DNA from: the human T2T-CHM13v2.0 reference genome, Homo sapiens
NCBI GenBank assembly: GCA_009914755.4
Contig: CP068257.2
Span: 23,104,001-23,168,000 of the forward strand
Direction: 5' to 3'
DNA: 64,000 nt
Shown: positions 13,960 through 39,885 of the stretch, piece after piece
How the letters are laid out: each line of letters opens with the position of its first letter
Numbering within the stretch: the first letter of the stretch is position 1
Program-made: the position numbers and the translations under genes
Notes under the pieces: generated by a model
Told to the model about the DNA's origin: nothing
What the model saw: the letters and a program-made list of their open reading frames with translations, nothing else
Databases searched by the model: none

Positions 13960-14291
<332 letters not shown>

Positions 14292-17102: not shown

Positions 17103-17430
17103 AGCCAGGCGCGGTAGCTCACGCCCATAAATCCCAGCAGTCTGGGAGGCTGAGGCATGCGGATCACCTGAGGTCAGGAGTTAGAGACCAGCCTGACCAA
17201 CATGGAGAAACCTTGTCTCTACTAAAAAATACAAAATCAGCTGGTCGTGGTGGCGTACACCTGTAATCCCAGCTACTCGGGAGGCTGAGGCAGGAGAATC
17301 GCTTGAACCCAGGAGGCGGAGGTTGCAGTAAGCCAAGATTGTGCATTGCATTCCAGCTTTGGCAAAAAGAGTGAAACTCTGTCTCAAAACAAATTAATAA
17401 ATAAAAATAAAAAAATTAAAACATCCAAAC
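17103..17430 (+). mobile_element. Full-length Alu (plus) with A-rich tail
   Basis: From 'agccaggcgcggtagctcacgcccataaatcccagc' to 'gtgaaactctgtctcaaaacaaattaataaataaaaataaaaaaattaaaa'. Confidence 0.95.
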
Positions 17431-27540: not shown

Positions 27541-28139
27541 CACTTATTAATTACAACTTTGTCAGATTTTCTAAGTAAAATTTAAATGCAGTAGTATCTA
27601 TAATTTTTACAGCAATTTTATGTCCCACTATTTAAGAGGCTGGAGCCAATATTGCCATAATGTGATATTATGCAATGATACTCAGGTAAATAAACTCTCT
27701 GCAAAAAAAAAAAATAATATTAACCTATAATTATTTTTGAAAATCATTCATATTGGATTTTTCGAAAATGCATATTGATTTCAACATTCAGGTAAAGTGA
27801 AACAGAAAGTGAAAGACACTCAAGATATGAACTACTTACTTATTGTAATGAGGATGCTGATTTTGCATATTTTTATAATTAAACTATACAAATCATCTCA
27901 TTATTTAAATACAGATTCCTTCTTAAAATATGAAGTCCACTTTGTTTTATTTACATTATGTGAGGCTCATAAAACACTTTGGAAAACTACTTCTTGAGAC
28001 ACGGCATTAAAGACTAAGTGGCAAAGTAAATAAGGATTATATCCCTATAATTATTCTGGATATATTTTTTAAATCTATCAAAAAAGGGAGGAGGGTCATC
28101 ATTAATTTTTTTTAATTTGCTTTTAACATATATTGTCTT

Positions 28140-28897
28140 TTTTTATTATTATACTTTAAGTTCTAGGGTACATGTGCACAATGTGCAGATTTATTACATA
28201 TGTATACATGTGCCATGTTGGTGTGCTGCACCCATTAACTCATCATTTGAATTAGGTATATCTCCTAATGCTATCCCTCCCCCCTCCCCCCACCCCACGA
28301 CAGGCCCCGGTGTGTGATGTTCCCCTTCCTGTGTCCGAGTGTTCTCATTGTTCAATTCCCACCTATGAGTGAGAACATGCGGTGTTTGGTTTTTTTGTCC
28401 TTGCGATAGGTTGCTTAGAATGACGGTTTCCAAATTCATCCATGTCCCTACAAAGGACATGAACTCAGCCTTTTTTATGGCTGCATAGTATTCCATGGTG
28501 TATATGTGCCACATTTTCTTAATCCAGTCTATCATTGATGGACATTTGGGTTGGTTCCAAGTCTTTGCTATTGTGAATAGTGTCACAATAAGCATATGTG
28601 TGCATGTGTCTTTATAGCAGCATGATTTATAATCCTTTGGGTATATACCCAGTAATGGGATGGCTGAGTCAAATGGTATTTCTAGTGCTAGATCCCTGAG
28701 GAATCACCACACTGTCTTCCACAATGGTTGAACTAGTTTACAGTCCCACCAACAGTGTAAAAGTGTTCCTATTTCTCCACACCCTCTCCAGTACCTGTTG
28801 TTTCCTGACTTTTTAATGATCGCCATTCTAACTGGTGTGAGATGGTATCTCATTGTGGTTTTGATTTGCGTTTCTCTGATGGCCAGTGATGATGAGC
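28140..28897 (-). mobile_element. Young L1PA-like L1 3' fragment (about 760 bp; ORF2 C-terminus plus 3' UTR, 5'-truncated) with 9-bp TSD
   Basis: Near-consensus reverse complement of the L1PA 3' end: 'ttttttattattatactttaagttctagggtacatgtgcacaatgtgcag...ccctcccccctccccccaccccacgacaggccccggtgtgtgatgttcccc...ttatggctgcatagtattccatggtgtatatgtgccacattttcttaatccagtctatcattgatggacatttgggttggttccaagtctttgctattgtgaatag...ggtatctcattgtggttttgatttgcgtttctctgatggccagtgatgatgagc'. Track ORF 28194..28595(-) reads '...TIAKTWNQPKCPSMIDWIKKMWHIYTMEYYAAIKK..FMSFVGTWM.LE.IILS.LSQGQK', the ORF2 C-terminus. TSD 'tattgtctt' at 28131-28139 and 28899-28907. Confidence 0.9.
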
Positions 28898-30384
28898 TTA
28901 TTGTCTTACAAGAAGAAGAATGAATTTCAGTATGTTTCCTTTGTTACCATAGCTGCTATAATTCACAGAACAAAATTTAATGTGCAACCAAATAGAGAAA
29001 GTTTCAAAGAGAAAGAGAAGGCCTGTGGCCTATGGCCCAAAAGTCAAGCTTGAGAGAAAGCTACTGGAAAGTATTGGAGTGAAATACTGAGAGCCAAGCT
29101 ATAGATATTACCTCTTTAATCTTCTGTTGAAAATCTTCAGTAAAATCTATATTTTTCTCTAGTGATTTGTGGATTCCCTCTCTTTTTTTGGTGGGTGTTG
29201 GAGATGTCTTATTGGTGAAGGAGAAAGCAATGAAGTGTTAAGTCTTGCTTCATGGAGCAGAAATAGAGGCTGCTCTTGAAAGACGGGAGATACAAGATTT
29301 GTACTTGCGTAAGAGATAATAATAATAATAATATAATTAGGAACATTGCCATGTTGGAAGGTATAAATTGAGAATGAATAGAAAGGGAAATTAACCCTGG
29401 TTTCACATGTCATGTTAATTCTGGAGAAAATGATGTCTAAACTAGAGTTAGAATTAGTTTTGATGGAGTTCAGAAAAAGCTGAAGATGTGAAATGTTTCA
29501 GGAGAAAGCAATTACATGTGAAAAGACCTAGGGGCAAAAGTTAAAGTAGCAGGTCTAGGAGCCTAGAGTGAGATGGAAGAAGTAGGAACTAGATACCCCG
29601 GAGAGGCACTTAAGGATAGTGTTGTAAACAGCCTTGTCAGATTCATAAGGGAGTTGTTCTTTAGCCTGAGAGCAATGAAGAGCCCAGCGAAGCCGATACT
29701 TTAATTACAATTGTGCAAACTTTTGGCAACAAAATGGAGAATGAAGCAGACAGTCTGTGCTTTCATTAAGTTTAAGTTCCCTGGGTGCAAAAGGCATTGA
29801 ACTCTTAACCATACAGATAAAATAATAATGCAATGGCAGCCCCACCTCCTTTTGACAGATCTGAAGAATATGTCCTGAGTGACTATGGGGATACCAATCC
29901 TCATTTACCTTACAAGTTTGTCTTTAATGCAGAGTCTCAGCAAAGAAGTTTCAGAGAGATTAGATTACAACTCAAAAAGTAAGCTGTAATGCTCTGACAG
30001 ACAATGAATTGGAATAGCGATGCCTAGTTTCAGGAAGACAGAAGAGGACTACCATACTTTACTGAGCAATTACTGGTGGAATTTCCACATTTCTTAGTCT
30101 ACTTATATTGTTTAATCATAGTAAGTGCACATTTTTATTCCTTTATTAATCTACTTCACTAATATATTTAAGTACCTACTCATTAGTAGAAACTGAGCTA
30201 ACTGGAGAGAGAAAATAGTAAGCAAATTCAATCCATGCTTTCATGAAACAAACTCCCTTAGATGCAGATAAAAATTACTATTTTTTATCAATAACATGGA
30301 AAAAGTTATACTGCACTATATCTTTATGATATAAAAAAGAATAAAATGACCAATGAAAGCATAATAAAGCATAATTTCATCTAT

Positions 30385-30565
30385 TCTTTTTTTAAAAAAA
30401 TGCAGGGTCTCACTCTGTAGCTCAGACTGGAATGTAGTGGAATGACCATAGCTGACTGCATCCTTCAACTTCTGGGTTGAAGTGATCCTCCCGCCTCAGC
30501 CTCCAGAATAGCTGAGACTGTAGGTGTGCACCACCACACCTGCTTCTAAATTTTTTTAATTTATG
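30385..30565 (-). mobile_element. Old, diverged Alu-derived fragment (right monomer only)
   Basis: Sequence 'tttttttaaaaaaatgcagggtctcactctgtagctcagactggaatgtagtggaatgaccatagctgactgcatccttcaacttctgggttgaagtgatcctcccgcctcagcctccagaatagctgagactgtaggtgtgcaccaccacacctgcttctaaattttt'. Confidence 0.6.
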
Positions 30566-31084
30566 AAATTTTAAAAGTACCAAGAGATCTTTTATATCTC
30601 AGTAAGGCATAGCTCTGAGTGATAAAATATTAACATATCAATGGAAGTTCCTAACTTTCCAAATATAAGCCTTTTAACTCCAGATAACTGTTAGGTCACT
30701 TTTGATAAGGAAGTTGTCTGTTTTCTTATGTAAGTTCACAGTTTTTTTATTTTTTTTTACACTCTTTACTTTTATTTTTTTTAGCCTTTAACTCTCAGGG
30801 AAGCAATAGATATACTTTAACACAAACTATAACAATTGTTTATTTTTATACTACAGAAAATGGATAGATGCTATTCTGAATTGTTCTAGTTTGTCACTAT
30901 ATGTTAGATTTTAAAATGTTTCAACATTTTTTTCTAGTTATATTTAAACTTAGATTTTACACTAAAATTTTCAGATATGCTACTAAAATATCAAGAAAAC
31001 TATAATTAATGGAAATCTTCCATAGGCAGAGAGACATTAATGTTCACAAAATGTTTTTGGTCTCTATATTAGTCACTTTATTTG

Positions 31085-31266
31085 CAAGAGGGAATCAAAA
31101 AGAATGACCTCTGCACGTATATGTAGAAAAACTCTGACCAACAGTCTTTACTTAAATATGGCACCGAATCAGGAAGATGCTTTATTATAGCACCACTTCT
31201 CCTTCTCTAAAAGGAAATCAACAGAGAATGGAGGTTCTAAGAGAACATCCCTATCAGTCGGCTGTC
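31085..31266 (+). repeat. Left arm of a ~620-bp palindrome (inverted repeat), unclassified
   Basis: Reverse complement of 31516-31700 at about 86% identity. For example, 'ggacagccgactgatagggatgttctcttagaacctccattctctgttgattt' (revcomp of the arm end) aligns with 'gaacagcagactgataggaatgttctcttagaacctctattctctgttgattt' at 31516. The alignment runs the full length of both arms. Confidence 0.8.
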
Positions 31267-31515
31267 CCTTCTTAAATATCAATGTAATATAATTAGAGTT
31301 TTTAATTATTATTCTTACATTAGTTTATTTTTAACTCAAATAATTAAATCACTCAAATCGCTGAATAGTGAATAATGATACACATTTATATTTAAGAGGG
31401 GATTCATTATCCCAAGATGATGCATTATTTTTAGTTTAAAAATAACTATTTAATTGTATGGAACAATCAGTTAAGTTTTGTCATTTTGGAGGATTCAGAA
31501 TTTGCATTATTTTCT

Positions 31516-31700
31516 GAACAGCAGACTGATAGGAATGTTCTCTTAGAACCTCTATTCTCTGTTGATTTTTTCTTTTGGAGAAGGGGGAAGAAGTGCTGTA
31601 ATAAAACACCTTCCTGATTCAGTGCGATATATAAATAAAGACCGTTGGTCAGAATTTTCCTACATGCATGTGCAGAGGCCAATCATTCTTCTAGGGTTTA
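31516..31700 (-). repeat. Right arm of the same palindrome
   Basis: See the left arm. An AT-rich spacer of about 250 bp (31267-31515) lies between the arms. Confidence 0.8.
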
Positions 31701-32856
31701 AACAATGTTTGAAATACATATTATTGGGCCACAAAACAGGTACTCAATTATGCTGGATTTCAAATTTTTTCTATGTCCAGCAGGTAAAAGCAACTAATTA
31801 AAATTATTGAACCTAGTTCTACTGGAGTTAATTTTCATGGGGAAGCACAAAGTCAGAATCAAAAGACCAATTTCTTGCTGCTTCTCAGATAGCTGAATGA
31901 TCAACAGTAAACAAGTGGAATTTCTAAGATTTATGGTCCTGTATCTACCTCATTCATCTTGGCTCTTATTGTTTTTACTCATGCCTTCCTACATTTTTCT
32001 CTTTGTGCCTGGTGTTCTTTGCATGAAATTTATTTTCCAATATAAAGCTGTTAGTCGACATGCTAGTATGATTAGGAAATAGAGTTATATTGCTCCCGTT
32101 GTCAGAGACACAGTTGCACTGGAGAGCACCCCATCAATTCATATGATCAGTCAGTTTAAAGCAAATCTGAATAACAACTACGGAGTCCAGTGAAGTACAG
32201 AATAATGATGGTTTGCCTTATTTTACTTCTTTCTTATTTGACTTTGTTTTCTTGTTGTTCGAGTGTCTCTTGGATACCAAATTAAAAATACAAAGAAAGT
32301 AAGTAATTACTTGGCAGGAAGGAAGTTAAAAAAAGTTGAATATAGGTGTTTTCTCTATATACATACTGTTTATCAGCAAGCTGAATTTGTTTATTTTATC
32401 CTCTTACCTATTTCTTTTGACTAATCTGGATTTATTATAGTAACTTATCTCCTTAGATGACTTTAAAGAAATCTCTTTGTGTACTTTACTCAGTGGGGTA
32501 CTTTGACAAAATGTACCAATTAGGCTTATGTGAGATGTCAAGTGAGAAGAATGAGTAAGAAAAATTGATCTCAAGTGAATGAACACATTTTATTCAGAGT
32601 GATTTTAAAATGTGAGCAAAAACACCACAATACATGATAAAATTAACCACCAGCTGAATTTGAATTATGTTCTTTATAGGATGCATCCTGAAACTTCATA
32701 GTATTAATGCAAAGGAAACAAAAGCTGTGGAAAATGATATTCAACATTGAACATCAGAAAAAACAATAATAATTTTTTATTTATATTTATCAATATTATT
32801 GTTTATTGTATGGACAGGCTTACAGACTGCAGTTGACAGGGGCTAGAGCTAAAATT

Positions 32857-34144: not shown

Positions 34145-34470
34145 AGCCAGGCACGGTGGCCCATGCCTATAATCCCAGCACTTTGGGAGGCCAAGGTGGA
34201 TATATCACCTGAGGTCAGGAGTTCAATACCAGCCTCGCCAACATGGTGAAACCCCGTCTCTACTAAAAATACAAAAATTAGCTGGGCGTGGTGGCACATG
34301 CCTGTAATCCCAGCTACTCTGGAGACTGAGGCAAGAGAATTGCTTGAATCTGGGAGATGGAGTTTACAGTGAGCTGAGATCATGCCACTGTACTCCAGCC
34401 TGGGCGACAGAGCAAGACTCCGTCTCAAAAAAAAAGAAAGAAAGAAAGAAAGAAACACAAAAAAAACTAA
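34145..34470 (+). mobile_element. Full-length Alu (plus) with a (GAAA)n-containing tail
   Basis: From 'agccaggcacggtggcccatgcctataatcccagcactttgggaggcc' to 'gactccgtctcaaaaaaaaagaaagaaagaaagaaagaaacacaaaaaaaa'. Probable TSD 'aactaactttcag'/'aactaacgtttga' (about 10 bp, one mismatch). Confidence 0.95.
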
Positions 34471-35138: not shown

Positions 35139-35463
35139 TGGCCAGGTACGGTGGCTCATTCCTGTAATCCCAGCATATTGGGAGGCCTAAGCAATTGGAT
35201 CACCTGAGGTCATGAGCTCAAGACCAGCCCGGCCAACATGGTGAAAGTCCATTCCTACTAAAAATACAAAAAAAATTAGCCGGGCTTAGTGGCAGGTACC
35301 TGTAATCCCAGCTACTCGGGAGGCTGAGGCAAGAGAACCGCTTGAACCTGGGAGTCAGAGGTTTCAGTGAGCCGAGACCATGCCATTGCACTCCAGCCTA
35401 GGCAACAAGAGCAAAACCCTGTCTCAAAAAAGGAAAAAAAAAAAAAAAGGTAAGGAAAAAAAA
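35139..35463 (+). mobile_element. Full-length Alu (plus) with perfect 15-bp TSD
   Basis: Runs from 'tggccaggtacggtggctcattcctgtaatcccagcatattgggaggcc' to 'ccctgtctcaaaaaaggaaaaaaaaaaaaaaaggtaaggaaaaaaaa'. TSD 'gaaaaatatttagtg' at 35124-35138 and 35464-35478. Confidence 0.95.
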
Positions 35464-36725: not shown

Positions 36726-37078
<353 letters not shown>

Positions 37079-37834: not shown

Positions 37835-39846
37835 TTATTTATTACATCAACTGTACTTTAACACATGTGCTTTTCATGTAGAATATATTGTGCTTTCTCT
37901 AAAGGAGTTTTAAAAAAGGGTGATAAATTAAAGTACCAAGTTTGAAGAAAAGGAAAGATAAGAAATAGGCCATAGACTATAAACTCCTTTTCATTCATTA
38001 TGCTTCATAAATTATTTAATTGTATATTTGGAATATATGAAAGGACATTTTAAATTTTGTGTAGTGCATGAAGTAAAAATAAAAATGAGAAATACCTGCA
38101 TACCCCACTATTTAAAATAATTACAATATTACAAGCATTTTAGAGAAACCTGTGGCTTCTTCCAGATCCAATTACCTTCTCTTCCTCACATAGGCATAAT
38201 GAATGTTCTATTTTAAAAAGTTTATCTTTCTTGTACTTTCATCTGCAGTTTTTCTTCCTTTTGGATTTTTATGAATAGAATTAAACTGCACGGTGTTTTG
38301 ACTTGCCTGCATTCTCAACTTTATGTTCCTGAGAATCATCTATGTGGTCATATAAACTGTAGATCATTCATTTTTCATGGATGAAATTCATTTTATGAAC
38401 AAGCTACAATTTAATTTCTTGCTAATTTTGATGGGCATGTGGGTGGTTTCCAGTGTGGAGGGGTTACAAATAATGCTACTCTGAGGCTTTTTGCATATGT
38501 GTCTTGATGCAGATATGCAAGAAGATATCTAGGAATGAAATTGTTTGCTTCGAGTCTAAAGAGAAAAAGTAGAACCAATTTTGAGCATTTAAACCACAGG
38601 GAGTAAAATGCAGAAAATGTTTTACATGTATAAGAAGCTACCAGAGGGCAGTGAAGCCAGAAGAGGATAACAAAGCAGGAAGCCCCTGCTACCCTTTGGA
38701 AAAGTGACAGATGGGAAGACGGGTTTCCAGATGCTTGGTGCTGGTTACTGTTTGCTGAAGCAGGAATGAATTCTGCCCTGTCTTCCCCTTGAAATGTTTT
38801 CCTCTGTTTCCCATGGATGTAACTGAGCAGGAAAGCATCTGACTTTGGGACACGGGATGCACTGTTTTTAAGTAACAAACTCCATATGATACAGAGTAGA
38901 GCAGCAAAAGGGTGAGGAATAAATCAGATGAAAAATAGGCTTAGTACCAGCAAGTGTTGAGGTAGTTGTATTATTTCAAATACTTGTCTAAAATGGTTTT
39001 ACTATTTAAATTTCCACAAATAGTGTAAAAGCATTTGTTTTTAGTTCATATGCACAGTAATATTTAAAAATGTCATTTAATTGTGTGTCAGTCTTATGTA
39101 CATAAATATCTCATTGCGTTTCAGTGCCTTTATGCAGTTACTAATAAGGATAGAAATTTTCTGTAGTTTTTGACCATCTTTTCTCATTGCGAGCTATTCT
39201 GCTTTTGACCATTGTCCTGTTGTTTTTGTTTTGTTAATTATTTTAACAATTTCTTTATAGATTCTGGATATTATTTATTGTTTAGTTATACATGCTGTAT
39301 CTTTTTCAATGGCCTTAAATTCCAACTTCCATTTTGTGTCTTTCAATAAAAAGATATTCCTAATTATGTGGTTTATTTTTTATCGTTGTTTATTATTTGT
39401 GTGTGTTTTGTTTCTTGCTTAAGAAACCTGTTACTCTTTGTTAGTCATGAAAATACTCTTCTTTATTATCTTTTAAAGTTTTGTAGTTTCATGATTTCCA
39501 ATTAAGCCTTAAATAGCTGATATTTATTTGCTATGTGATGTGAGGGGATACATTTTCTTTCACTGTGTAGTTAGCTGTGCTAGGCCTATTTATTGAAAAC
39601 TGTGATTATCTACAATAGAAGCTATATCATAAAGCATATTCCCACATATGAACTGCTGGGTTTTCTACTCTGTTTCTTATATCAATTTATATATCTCTTG
39701 TCCAGCCTCATAATTACCATTGCTTACATTACCATGTTATTGTAACTGTGTTCTCTTTATAAAAATTATTGATATGTGGAAAGCAAAATCAACTTTATTA
39801 GTGAATTTATGATTCTGAGTCTTTTGTACTTAATATACATTACTTT

Positions 39847-39885
39847 CAATGGCAAAACAGCAATTTACTTTTGCACCAACCTAAT
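39847..39885. mobile_element. Partial MADE1 / Hsmar1-type mariner MITE (one half with terminal inverted repeat)
   Basis: Sequence 'tcaatggcaaaacagcaatttacttttgcaccaacctaa' matches the second half of MADE1 ('aatggcaaaaaccgcaattacttttgcaccaacctaa'). It is followed by 'ta', the mariner TA target site. Confidence 0.45.

What the first reader, a model, noticed from the sequence alone, without database searches (positions are those of the whole stretch)
31085..31700. Unclassified ~620-bp palindrome: two ~182-bp inverted arms (about 86% identity) around a ~250-bp AT-rich spacer
The reverse complement of 31085-31266 aligns end-to-end with 31516-31700. For example, the revcomp of the arm-A end 'ggacagccgactgatagggatgttctcttagaacctccattctctgttgattt' aligns with arm B 'gaacagcagactgataggaatgttctcttagaacctctattctctgttgattt', and the match continues for about 180 bp. 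I do not recognise the arm sequence as Alu, L1 or MaLR, and the arms are far longer than typical hAT or mariner TIRs. Candidate explanations are a non-autonomous DNA transposon with long TIRs (I see no clear TSD), an ancient local inverted duplication, or the hairpin-forming part of a miRNA/siRNA-like precursor. Long inverted repeats are also replication-fragile sites. The divergence between arms implies the structure is old rather than an assembly artefact.
Basis: seen in the sequence. Interest (0 to 1): 0.6.

Follow-up and report, generated by a model that had tools for sequence, protein, structure and literature searches.

The report
Old decayed inverted repeat, primate DNA
The inverted repeat is real: two arms about 87% alike in AT-rich, repeat-rich primate DNA, most likely a 30-60-million-year-old local inverted duplication or a dead transposon relic, with no sign of function, so it is ordinary.

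Summary
Window 31100-31265 pairs with 31518-31690 at 145/166 identities (87%), alignment score 204 against 18.7±2.4 for shuffles.

New here: arm A continues to 31295 and pairs with 31373-31402 (0 of 3000 shuffles reach the score). The ancestral structure was therefore about 196-nt arms around a 77-nt loop, plus one 115-nt block (31403-31517) present only on the arm-B side.

The window is anthropoid primate DNA (Alus, an L1 tail, a MADE1 half). The arms match nothing else in the window and no Rfam family.

Mismatches look neutral: 17 transitions to 4 transversions, 5 at CpG, and no strand bias in G:U-compatible changes. K2P distance is 0.142.

No target-site duplication and no terminal transposon signature occur on both ends. 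The right end resembles a piggyBac terminus (TTTAAA-CCCTAG), but the left end does not.

Best reading (about 0.45): a fold-back or repair-mediated local inverted duplication, now decaying. Main rival (about 0.33): a dead long-TIR non-autonomous transposon. No primate genome or Dfam library was reachable, so copy number and orthologous empty sites remain untested.

The parts
31100..31265 (.). Arm A, main block (166 nt, 39.8% GC)
   Evidence: It aligns as a reverse complement to 31518-31690 with 145/166 identities, score 204 against 18.7±2.4 for shuffles. It sits between an AT-rich left flank (24-26% GC) and an AT-rich loop (20% GC).
31266..31295 (.). Arm A, inner extension (30 nt, AT-rich)
   Evidence: It pairs with 31373-31402 (25/29 plus one gap). 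The anchored score is 19 against 8.2±1.75, and 0 of 3000 dinucleotide shuffles reach it. It is also found by blastn and in the folds.
31296..31372 (.). Inferred ancestral loop (77 nt, very AT-rich)
   Evidence: This is the interval between the two inner extensions. It has no significant self-complementarity to either arm.
31373..31402 (.). Arm B, inner extension (partner of 31266-31295)
   Evidence: It is colinear with the rest of arm B once the 115-nt block is removed.
31403..31517 (.). 115-nt block present only on the arm-B side. It is either an insertion into arm B, or sequence skipped or deleted from arm A.
   Evidence: It stays unpaired in all folds. It has no significant match elsewhere in the window.
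31518..31690 (.). Arm B, main block (173 nt, 38.7% GC)
   Evidence: Its GC is continuous with the right flank, which is 33-38%.
31691..31703 (-). Right flank CTAGGGTTTAAAC. Its reverse complement GTTTAAACCCTAG abuts the arm start AAGAATGA and resembles a piggyBac end.
   Evidence: It shares a 10-nt identity, AACCCTAGAA, with the T. ni piggyBac terminus (T. ni sequence from PMC4625184). There is an extra A between TTAA and CCC, no counterpart at the left end, and no similarity beyond the TIR. TTAA.?CCCT occurs 6 times in the 128,000 strand-positions of the window.

Best explanation
This is an old, single-locus inverted duplication of local DNA, not a gene and not a working mobile element.

Inferred mechanism: a break or stalled synthesis just left of the present loop left a 3' end. 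That end folded back on its own strand, or switched template to the complementary strand. It copied roughly 200 nt of the neighbouring sequence (today 31373-31402 plus 31518-31690) in reverse-complement orientation. The 115-nt block in between was either skipped during copying or lost from the copy later. The extended end was then rejoined to the left flank at 31099/31100.

On this reading arm A (31100-31295) is the copy, arm B is the native donor, and 31296-31372 is the native loop. Since then both arms have drifted neutrally for roughly 30-60 million years.

What is shown and what is inferred:
- Shown: the geometry, the neutral-looking substitution pattern, and the lack of transposon end features.
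- Inferred: the direction of copying, the fold-back or repair mechanism, and the age.
For: - Geometry. The arms are about 196 nt around a 77-nt loop, with sharp outer boundaries and nothing pairing beyond them. This is what fold-back or template-switch copying produces.
- Published precedent. The arm length and the short donor-to-copy distance match repair-mediated proximal duplications described in primate genomes. Those have a mean length of 162 bp, a maximum of 619 bp, and most lie within 3-5 kb of the donor (PMC2671141, read).
- No transposon hallmarks. No TSD of 3-11 bp appears at any plausible pair of boundaries. The best candidates are 7-9-mers with 1-2 mismatches that leave non-complementary termini, as expected by chance in AT-rich DNA. 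The shared arm ends read AAGAATGA, which is not the terminus of any superfamily I know.
- Composition. Arm A is a 40% GC block set inside 20-26% GC sequence on both sides. Arm B (39%) is continuous with the 33-38% GC right flank. This fits arm A being the inserted copy.
- Single copy as far as can be seen. No other copy occurs in the 64-kb window. Scans with 18-22-nt pieces of the arm (the 18-mer extending into the right flank) found nothing related in viral, metagenome or prokaryote-genome collections. No predicted protein anywhere shares words with the arm ORF.
- Neutral decay. There are 17 transitions and 4 transversions, 5 of them at CpG sites. G:U-compatible changes number 7 on the + strand and 10 on the - strand. 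K2P distance is 0.142. Both strands fold equally well.
Against: - Copy number in the host genome could not be measured. A low- or medium-copy transposon family would look identical in a 64-kb window.
- The per-arm divergence of about 7% falls in the period of the last DNA-transposon activity in anthropoids. Activity is reported to have ended about 37 Myr ago (PMC2997546 abstract; PMC2268245). That coincidence favours a transposon.
- The right flank reads TTTAAA-CCCTAG, like a piggyBac end with its TTAA target.
- The compositional argument is soft. Removing the whole 31100-31690 segment also leaves a plausible sequence.
- No microhomology is visible at the junctions, although 14% divergence would hide it.
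Confidence: 0.45

Rival explanations
1. It is a dead non-autonomous DNA transposon of the palindromic MITE or foldback type. It would have had about 196-nt terminal inverted repeats and a short AT-rich loop, inserted in an anthropoid ancestor and later been damaged at its left end. One sub-version is a piggyBac-like element whose right end CCCTAG/TTAA survives.
For: - The architecture fits: long TIR-like arms, a small non-coding AT-rich interior, and a total of about 475-590 bp.
- The age implied by K2P 0.142 matches the last wave of anthropoid DNA-transposon activity (PMC2997546; PMC2268245).
- The right end GTTTAAA-CCCTAG-AAGAATGA shares the 10-mer AACCCTAGAA with the T. ni piggyBac terminus (PMC4625184). 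TTAA.?CCCTAG occurs only here in the window.
- A 10-nt palindrome, ACATGCATGT, lies about 20 nt inside that end. This is where piggyBac-like elements carry subterminal inverted repeats (PMC12324416).
Against: - No TSD is present.
- The left end lacks CCCTAG and TTAA. Pairing stops 6 nt short of the putative terminus, and only 3 of the next 10 positions are complementary on a manual read. Searches show no outward extension.
- An extra A separates TTAA from CCC.
- The piggyBac reading therefore needs two ad hoc events, which makes it no more likely than a chance motif. I estimate the chance probability at about 0.005 after allowing for position slack and the several superfamily signatures I looked for.
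- Known human piggyBac-like families have about 13-nt TIRs and a different size (MER85 is 140 bp) (PMC2268245; PMC12324416). Their ITRs are only 53-56% identical to T. ni (PMC4625184).
- No second copy was found anywhere I could search.
Confidence: 0.33
2. The arms are two independent insertions of the same short interspersed repeat, a roughly 170-200-bp family not represented elsewhere in the window, that landed 250 bp apart in opposite orientation.
For: - Inverted pairs of interspersed repeats are the commonest source of inverted repeats in primate DNA. The window has several Alu-Alu pairs at 71-84% complementarity.
- Both arms are GC-richer than the sequence between them.
Against: - The arms are not Alu, L1, MIR, L2 or MADE1. 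They match no other window sequence and no consensus I could supply from memory.
- Two copies of a rare family with the same outer and inner ends, 250 bp apart, would be a large coincidence.
- The colinear inner extension with a 115-nt indel fits one ancestral palindrome better than two separate insertions.
Confidence: 0.07
3. It is a functional long-hairpin RNA gene, such as a miRNA or endo-siRNA precursor or a regulated ADAR substrate, maintained by selection.
For: Either strand would fold into a very stable hairpin: -277.5 and -280.1 kcal/mol, with z-scores of -28 and -32.
Against: - No Rfam family matches at gathering score. The weak hits (mir-8196, mir-1910 and others) have E-values of about 0.2-8 and score far below threshold.
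- The transitions are not biased toward G:U on either strand (7 against 10).
- The stability follows automatically from any inverted repeat.
- Expression could not be tested.
Confidence: 0.03

Closest known systems
Repair-mediated proximal duplications in vertebrate genomes (Pace, Sen, Batzer, Feschotte 2009, PMC2671141), and fold-back / template-switch inverted duplications
   Same: A copy of nearby unique DNA about 160-200 bp long (the published mean is 162 bp), placed within a few hundred bp to a few kb of the donor. It has no TSD and no transposon termini, and it is of primate age.
   Different: - The published set was detected only where the copy interrupts an annotated transposon. That is not shown here.
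- Orientation statistics are not given in the text I read.
- The donor-copy distance here (77 nt ancestrally) is at the short extreme. That points to fold-back priming rather than capture of a more distant template.
- The empty ancestral site has not been seen.
Palindromic MITEs of primates, for example MADE1 (an 80-bp element made of two Hsmar1 TIRs); a truncated copy lies at 39838-39884
   Same: A nearly complete palindrome with a short loop, non-coding, and of anthropoid age.
   Different: - MADE1 is 80 bp with about 37-nt arms, TA target duplications and thousands of copies (own knowledge).
- This structure has about 196-nt arms, no TSD and no second copy detected.
Human piggyBac-like elements MER75 / MER75A / MER75B / MER85 / Looper
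   Same: - The right end carries TT(T)AA next to CCCTAG.
- A small subterminal palindrome is present.
- The age is similar to that of MER85 and MER75.
   Different: - Those families have about 13-nt TIRs and TTAA on both sides (PMC2268245, PMC4625184).
- Here only one end shows the motif, and imperfectly.
- The inverted arms are more than ten times longer.
Palindromic AT-rich repeats (PATRRs) and other fragile palindromes
   Same: A palindromic structure a few hundred bp long in AT-rich DNA.
   Different: PATRRs are near-perfect palindromes with no or a tiny spacer and AT-rich arms (own knowledge). Here identity is 87%, the spacer is 252 nt and the arms are 39% GC, so cruciform extrusion and fragility are not expected.

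Membership tests
piggyBac-like element (pble / MITE) | TTAA target-site duplication directly flanking both ends | tested here: not met
   The right side reads GGG-T-TTAA-AC (TTTAAA), one nucleotide out of register. The left side has no TTAA within 30 nt.
piggyBac-like element (pble / MITE) | Both termini 5'-CCC...GGG-3' within short (about 13-19 nt) TIRs | tested here: not met
   CCCTAG is present only at the right end. The left end reads ATCAAA at the equivalent positions. The inverted arms are 166-196 nt.
piggyBac-like element (pble / MITE) | Sequence similarity to a known pble consensus (MER75/75A/75B, MER85, Looper) | not testable with these tools
The papers read give them only in figures or in supplements that are not held. 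Against T. ni piggyBac, similarity stops after AACCCTAGAA.
Non-autonomous DNA transposon with long TIRs (MITE / foldback) | Terminal inverted repeats reaching the element ends | tested here: met
   31100-31265(-31295) pairs with (31373-31402+)31518-31690 at 87% identity.
Non-autonomous DNA transposon with long TIRs (MITE / foldback) | Target-site duplication flanking the TIRs | tested here: not met
   A systematic scan of 30 x 32 boundary pairs and TSD lengths 3-11 found only chance-level matches, and none of them adjoins complementary termini.
Non-autonomous DNA transposon with long TIRs (MITE / foldback) | Multiple dispersed copies with the same ends | not testable with these tools
   - There is no other copy in the 64-kb window, but fewer than 0.2 would be expected even for 10,000 genomic copies.
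- No primate genome is searchable. The viral, metagenome and prokaryote scans were empty.
Repair-mediated / fold-back local inverted duplication | The copy derives from unique sequence a short distance away on the same chromosome | tested here: met
   The only match of either arm in the window is the other arm, 252 nt away and 77 nt away ancestrally.
Repair-mediated / fold-back local inverted duplication | Length in the reported range (at least 50 bp, mean 162, maximum 619) and no TSD or transposon termini | tested here: met
   The arms are 166-196 nt, no TSD is present, and the published range is from PMC2671141.
Repair-mediated / fold-back local inverted duplication | An ancestral empty site: an outgroup with donor and loop but without the copy | not testable with these tools
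   No orthologous primate locus could be fetched. Look-ups of three window ORFs found nothing on record.
miRNA / hairpin-RNA gene | A match to a curated RNA family, or structure-preserving substitutions biased to the transcribed strand | tested here: not met
   - Rfam gave 0 hits at gathering score and only noise below it.
- G:U-compatible transitions number 7 on the + strand and 10 on the - strand.
Inverted pair of common interspersed repeats (Alu, L1, MIR, L2) | Each arm matches a common repeat family | tested here: inconclusive
   The arms match none of the Alu, L1 or other repeats present in the window. Rarer families cannot be excluded without Dfam.
Fragile palindrome (PATRR-like) | Near-perfect arms with little or no spacer | tested here: not met
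   Identity is 87% and the spacer is 252 nt.

The most novel reading that the evidence does not exclude
The structure is the relic of an uncatalogued piggyBac-like element in an anthropoid genome. Its terminus (TTAA-CCCTAGAAGAATG) would be closer to the insect T. ni piggyBac end (10 of 13 TIR positions) than those of MER75 or MER85. It would also carry unusually long (about 196-nt) inverted arms. That would make it a third, possibly horizontally acquired, piggyBac lineage active about 35-45 Myr ago, immobilised by loss of its left terminus.
Probability: 0.07. Interest if true: 0.45.

Novelty: new member of a known kind. Interest (0 to 1): 0.15.

Why it matters
It matters little. Local inverted duplications and dead palindromic transposon relics are both well-described by-products of break repair and of past transposon activity in primate genomes. 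This one shows no sign of selection, coding capacity or a known RNA family.

Its modest value is as a clean worked example. The anatomy (about 196-nt arms, a 77-nt loop, one 115-nt indel) makes two opposite and easily testable predictions for outgroup primates: either arm A alone is missing, or the whole 590 bp is missing.

If the region is transcribed, the hairpin would be one more long double-stranded RNA substrate among the many inverted Alu pairs nearby.

Only the low-probability piggyBac reading would be of wider interest, given current work on what PGBD5, PGBD3 and PGBD4 can still recognise in human DNA.

Tried and rejected
- **Other copies in the window.** blastn at word size 7 found none.
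- **Rfam.** The whole window at gathering score, and the locus at E-values up to 10, gave nothing credible. There are no tRNA-like sequences.
- **Public DNA collections, using conserved 18-22-mers from the arms and the right end.**
  - Viral contigs, two scans: 0 hits.
  - Metagenome contigs, two scans: 0 hits.
  - Prokaryote genomes, two scans: one 22-mer hit in an Ignavibacteriales MAG whose flanks are unrelated, so a chance match.
  - These collections evidently hold little primate DNA, so the negatives say little about copy number.
- **Protein search with an arm ORF.** I searched the 71-aa ORF that spans arm B against 5.8 billion proteins, hoping to catch spurious ORFs from other copies. 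No candidate was found.
- **Orthologous or identical loci.** Exact-protein look-ups of three window ORFs found nothing on record.
- **Literature string searches.** Six arm 14-17-mers and four terminus strings returned only unrelated primer hits.
- **MER75 / MER85 / Looper consensus sequences.** I looked in five papers. They appear only in figures or in supplements that are not held.
None matched the locus. This only turned up a MADE1 half and L2 fragments elsewhere.
Rejected.
- **TSD candidates.** ATTTGCAA/GTTTGAAA and AGGG/AGGG were rejected, because the termini they imply are not complementary.
- **Similarity to T. ni piggyBac beyond the TIR.** Not significant, p = 0.13-0.42.
- **Not attempted.** I considered reaching human PGBD4/PGBD3 loci through a piggyBac transposase search in order to read the flanking MER75B/MER85. 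I dropped it as unlikely to surface the human genes among thousands of closer insect hits.

Full report
**Setting.** The window is anthropoid primate DNA.
- A 23-nt Alu core motif occurs 15 times, against 0 expected.
- An L1 ORF2 C-terminal fragment lies at 28194-28595 on the minus strand.
- Half of a MADE1 element lies at 39838-39884.
- GC is 27-40% throughout, with no CpG-island-like segment.
- The tools are built mainly for prokaryotes and viruses. No primate genome, Dfam library or orthologous locus was reachable, and that limits what can be concluded.

**The observation.**
- The inverted repeat is real. Arm A 31100-31265 aligns with the reverse complement of arm B 31518-31690, with 145 matches, 21 mismatches and 7 gap columns in three indels. 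That is 87.3% identity, score 204 against 18.7±2.4 in shuffles. Two other tools confirm it.
Beyond 31100 and 31690 the flanks score no better than shuffled sequence.
- The spacer is 252 nt at 23% GC. The arms are 39-40% GC.

**New anatomy.**
- Arm A does not stop at 31265. The next 30 nt (31266-31295) pair with 31373-31402. When the alignment is anchored at the arm boundary it scores 19 against 8.2±1.75, and none of 3000 dinucleotide shuffles reaches it. The query length was chosen after seeing the alignment, so the true p-value is somewhat larger but still small.
- RNA and DNA folds of either strand recover the same nested arrangement.
- The ancestral structure was therefore a near-complete palindrome. 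It had arms of about 196 nt and a 77-nt loop (31296-31372).
- One 115-nt block (31403-31517) is present only on the arm-B side. It matches nothing else in the window.

**Substitution pattern.**
- Of the 21 mismatches, 17 are transitions and 4 are transversions, and 5 lie at CpG sites.
- Transitions that would be G:U on the plus-strand RNA number 7. Those that would be G:U on the minus-strand RNA number 10.
- K2P distance is 0.142.
- The two strands fold equally well, at -277.5 and -280.1 kcal/mol.
- This is what neutral decay of two once-identical copies in a methylated vertebrate genome looks like. Nothing indicates selection for an RNA structure on either strand.
- At commonly used primate neutral rates of about 1.2-2.2 x 10^-9 per site per year (own knowledge), 0.071 per arm corresponds to roughly 30-60 Myr.

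**What it is not.**
- It matches no Rfam family at gathering score. The sub-threshold hits (E-values about 0.2-8, scores far below the gathering cut-offs) are noise. There is no tRNA-like sequence.
- The arms match no Alu, L1 or other sequence in the window, and none of the consensus sequences I could type from memory.
- ORFs across the arms are short. The 71-aa ORF spanning arm B shares no words with any of 5.8 billion proteins.
- The other inverted repeats in the window with arms of at least 80 nt and spacers up to 3 kb appear to be Alu-Alu pairs (the Alu assignment rests on the Alu positions and the Alu-like hits, and was not checked pair by pair).

**Transposon or duplication?** A transposon with terminal inverted repeats should have a target-site duplication, and terminal nucleotides shared by both ends.
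- A systematic scan of all plausible boundary pairs and TSD lengths of 3-11 found only chance-level matches. None of them adjoins complementary termini.
- The shared arm ends read AAGAATGA, which is not a terminus I recognise for hAT, Tc1/mariner, piggyBac, PIF or MuDR (own knowledge).

The one suggestive feature is at the right end. Six nucleotides beyond the end of pairing, the reverse strand reads GTTTAAA-CCCTAG-AAGAATGA.
- It shares the 10-mer AACCCTAGAA with the T. ni piggyBac terminus (sequence from PMC4625184). TTAA.?CCCTAG occurs only there in the window.
- However, an extra A separates TTAA from CCC. The left end has neither CCCTAG nor TTAA. Similarity to T. ni stops after the TIR (p = 0.13-0.42).
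- The looser signature TTAA.?CCCT occurs 6 times in the window's 128,000 strand-positions. Allowing about 26 admissible positions and the several signatures I looked for, a chance occurrence has a probability of order 0.005.
- The piggyBac reading itself needs two ad hoc events: a 1-nt insertion at the junction and loss of the left terminus. Their joint probability is of similar size, so the motif does not discriminate.
- Known human piggyBac-like families have about 13-nt TIRs (MER85 is 140 bp). Their ITRs are only 53-56% identical to T. ni (PMC2268245; PMC4625184; PMC12324416). A match here would therefore mean an uncatalogued family, which has a low prior.

In favour of a duplication:
- The geometry is what fold-back priming or template switching produces: a copy placed in reverse orientation a few tens of nucleotides from its template.
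- Pace et al. 2009 (PMC2671141) documented hundreds of repair-mediated duplications in the human genome. The mean copy length is 162 bp, the maximum is 619 bp, and most lie within 3-5 kb of the donor. The arms here are 166-196 nt.
- Composition fits arm A being the inserted copy. Arm A is a 40% GC block flanked on both sides by 20-26% GC sequence. Arm B is continuous with the 33-38% GC sequence to its right. This argument is soft, because excising the whole element also leaves a plausible sequence.

In favour of a transposon:
- The palindromic MITE-like architecture.
- The age coincides with the last period of DNA-transposon activity in anthropoids, with no activity reported in the last about 37 Myr (PMC2997546; PMC2268245).

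**Verdict.**
- Local inverted duplication by fold-back or repair synthesis, with arm A the copy: about 0.45.
- Dead long-TIR non-autonomous transposon: about 0.33, of which about 0.07-0.1 is piggyBac-like.
- Two independent insertions of a rare short repeat: about 0.07.
- Selected hairpin-RNA gene: about 0.03.
- The remainder is unassigned.
- On every one of these readings except the last, the structure is a neutrally decaying relic.
- Fragility is not expected, given a 252-nt spacer and 87% identity (own knowledge of inverted-repeat instability; not tested).

**What would settle it.** A Dfam/RepeatMasker run, a genome-wide copy count of the arm, and the orthologous locus in outgroup primates. 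The duplication model predicts species that lack only 31100-31295. The transposon model predicts species that lack all of 31100-31690 with a single target site.

**What failed.**
- All scans of public DNA collections were empty or gave chance hits.
- Exact-protein look-ups for nearby ORFs found nothing.
- Literature string searches returned unrelated primers.
- The consensus sequences of the human piggyBac-like families were not available as text.

Noticed in passing
window 39838-39884: This is a truncated MADE1 (Hsmar1-derived palindromic MITE), with one TIR half ending ...TTTTGCACCAACCTAA followed by TA. It is useful as a marker that the window is anthropoid DNA.
   Followed up: partly
window 31662-31671 (arm B); equivalent 31115-31124 in arm A: A perfect 10-nt palindrome, ACATGCATGT, lies about 20 nt inside the right end of arm B. 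The arm-A copy (ACGTATATGT) has lost it through CpG and other transitions. Its position recalls the subterminal inverted repeats of piggyBac-like elements, but it could easily be chance.
   Followed up: partly
window 30403-30573: An old Alu-like fragment (a FLAM/monomer-type or very diverged Alu) lies about 530 bp upstream of the palindrome. It is 69-79% identical to more than a dozen Alus across the window.
   Followed up: no
window 34273-34434 / 36789-36950, 35262-35407 / 36814-36959, 50642-50758 / 51615-51731, 14165-14263 / 17130-17228: These are inverted pairs, apparently Alu-Alu, at 74-84% complementarity with spacers of 0.9-2.9 kb. They are the ordinary kind of long inverted repeat in this window and a useful comparison for the finding.
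   Followed up: no
window 50937-51109: A long (AGAA)n microsatellite with 43 copies and 95% matches. It sits next to Alu sequence and is likely polymorphic.
   Followed up: no
window 28194-28595 (minus strand): A 133-aa ORF that is the C-terminal end of L1 ORF2 (…MEYYAAIKK…). It marks the 3' part of a primate L1. 29841-29939 is 76% similar to 27995-28095 in inverted orientation.
   Followed up: no
window 46962-47030 and 46108-46174: A 34-bp unit duplicated in tandem (2.0 copies, 91% matches), and a nearby AT-rich 30-bp, 1.9-copy repeat. These are small local tandem duplications in very AT-rich sequence.
   Followed up: no
They are probably ancient L2 fragments.
   Followed up: no
L001 6495-6516 (Ignavibacteriales MAG JBIQJD010000006.1): An exact 22-mer match to arm A (GAATCAGGAAGATGCTTTATTA) inside bacterial sequence. 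The flanks are unrelated, so this is a chance hit (about 0.3 expected for the collection size).
   Followed up: yes
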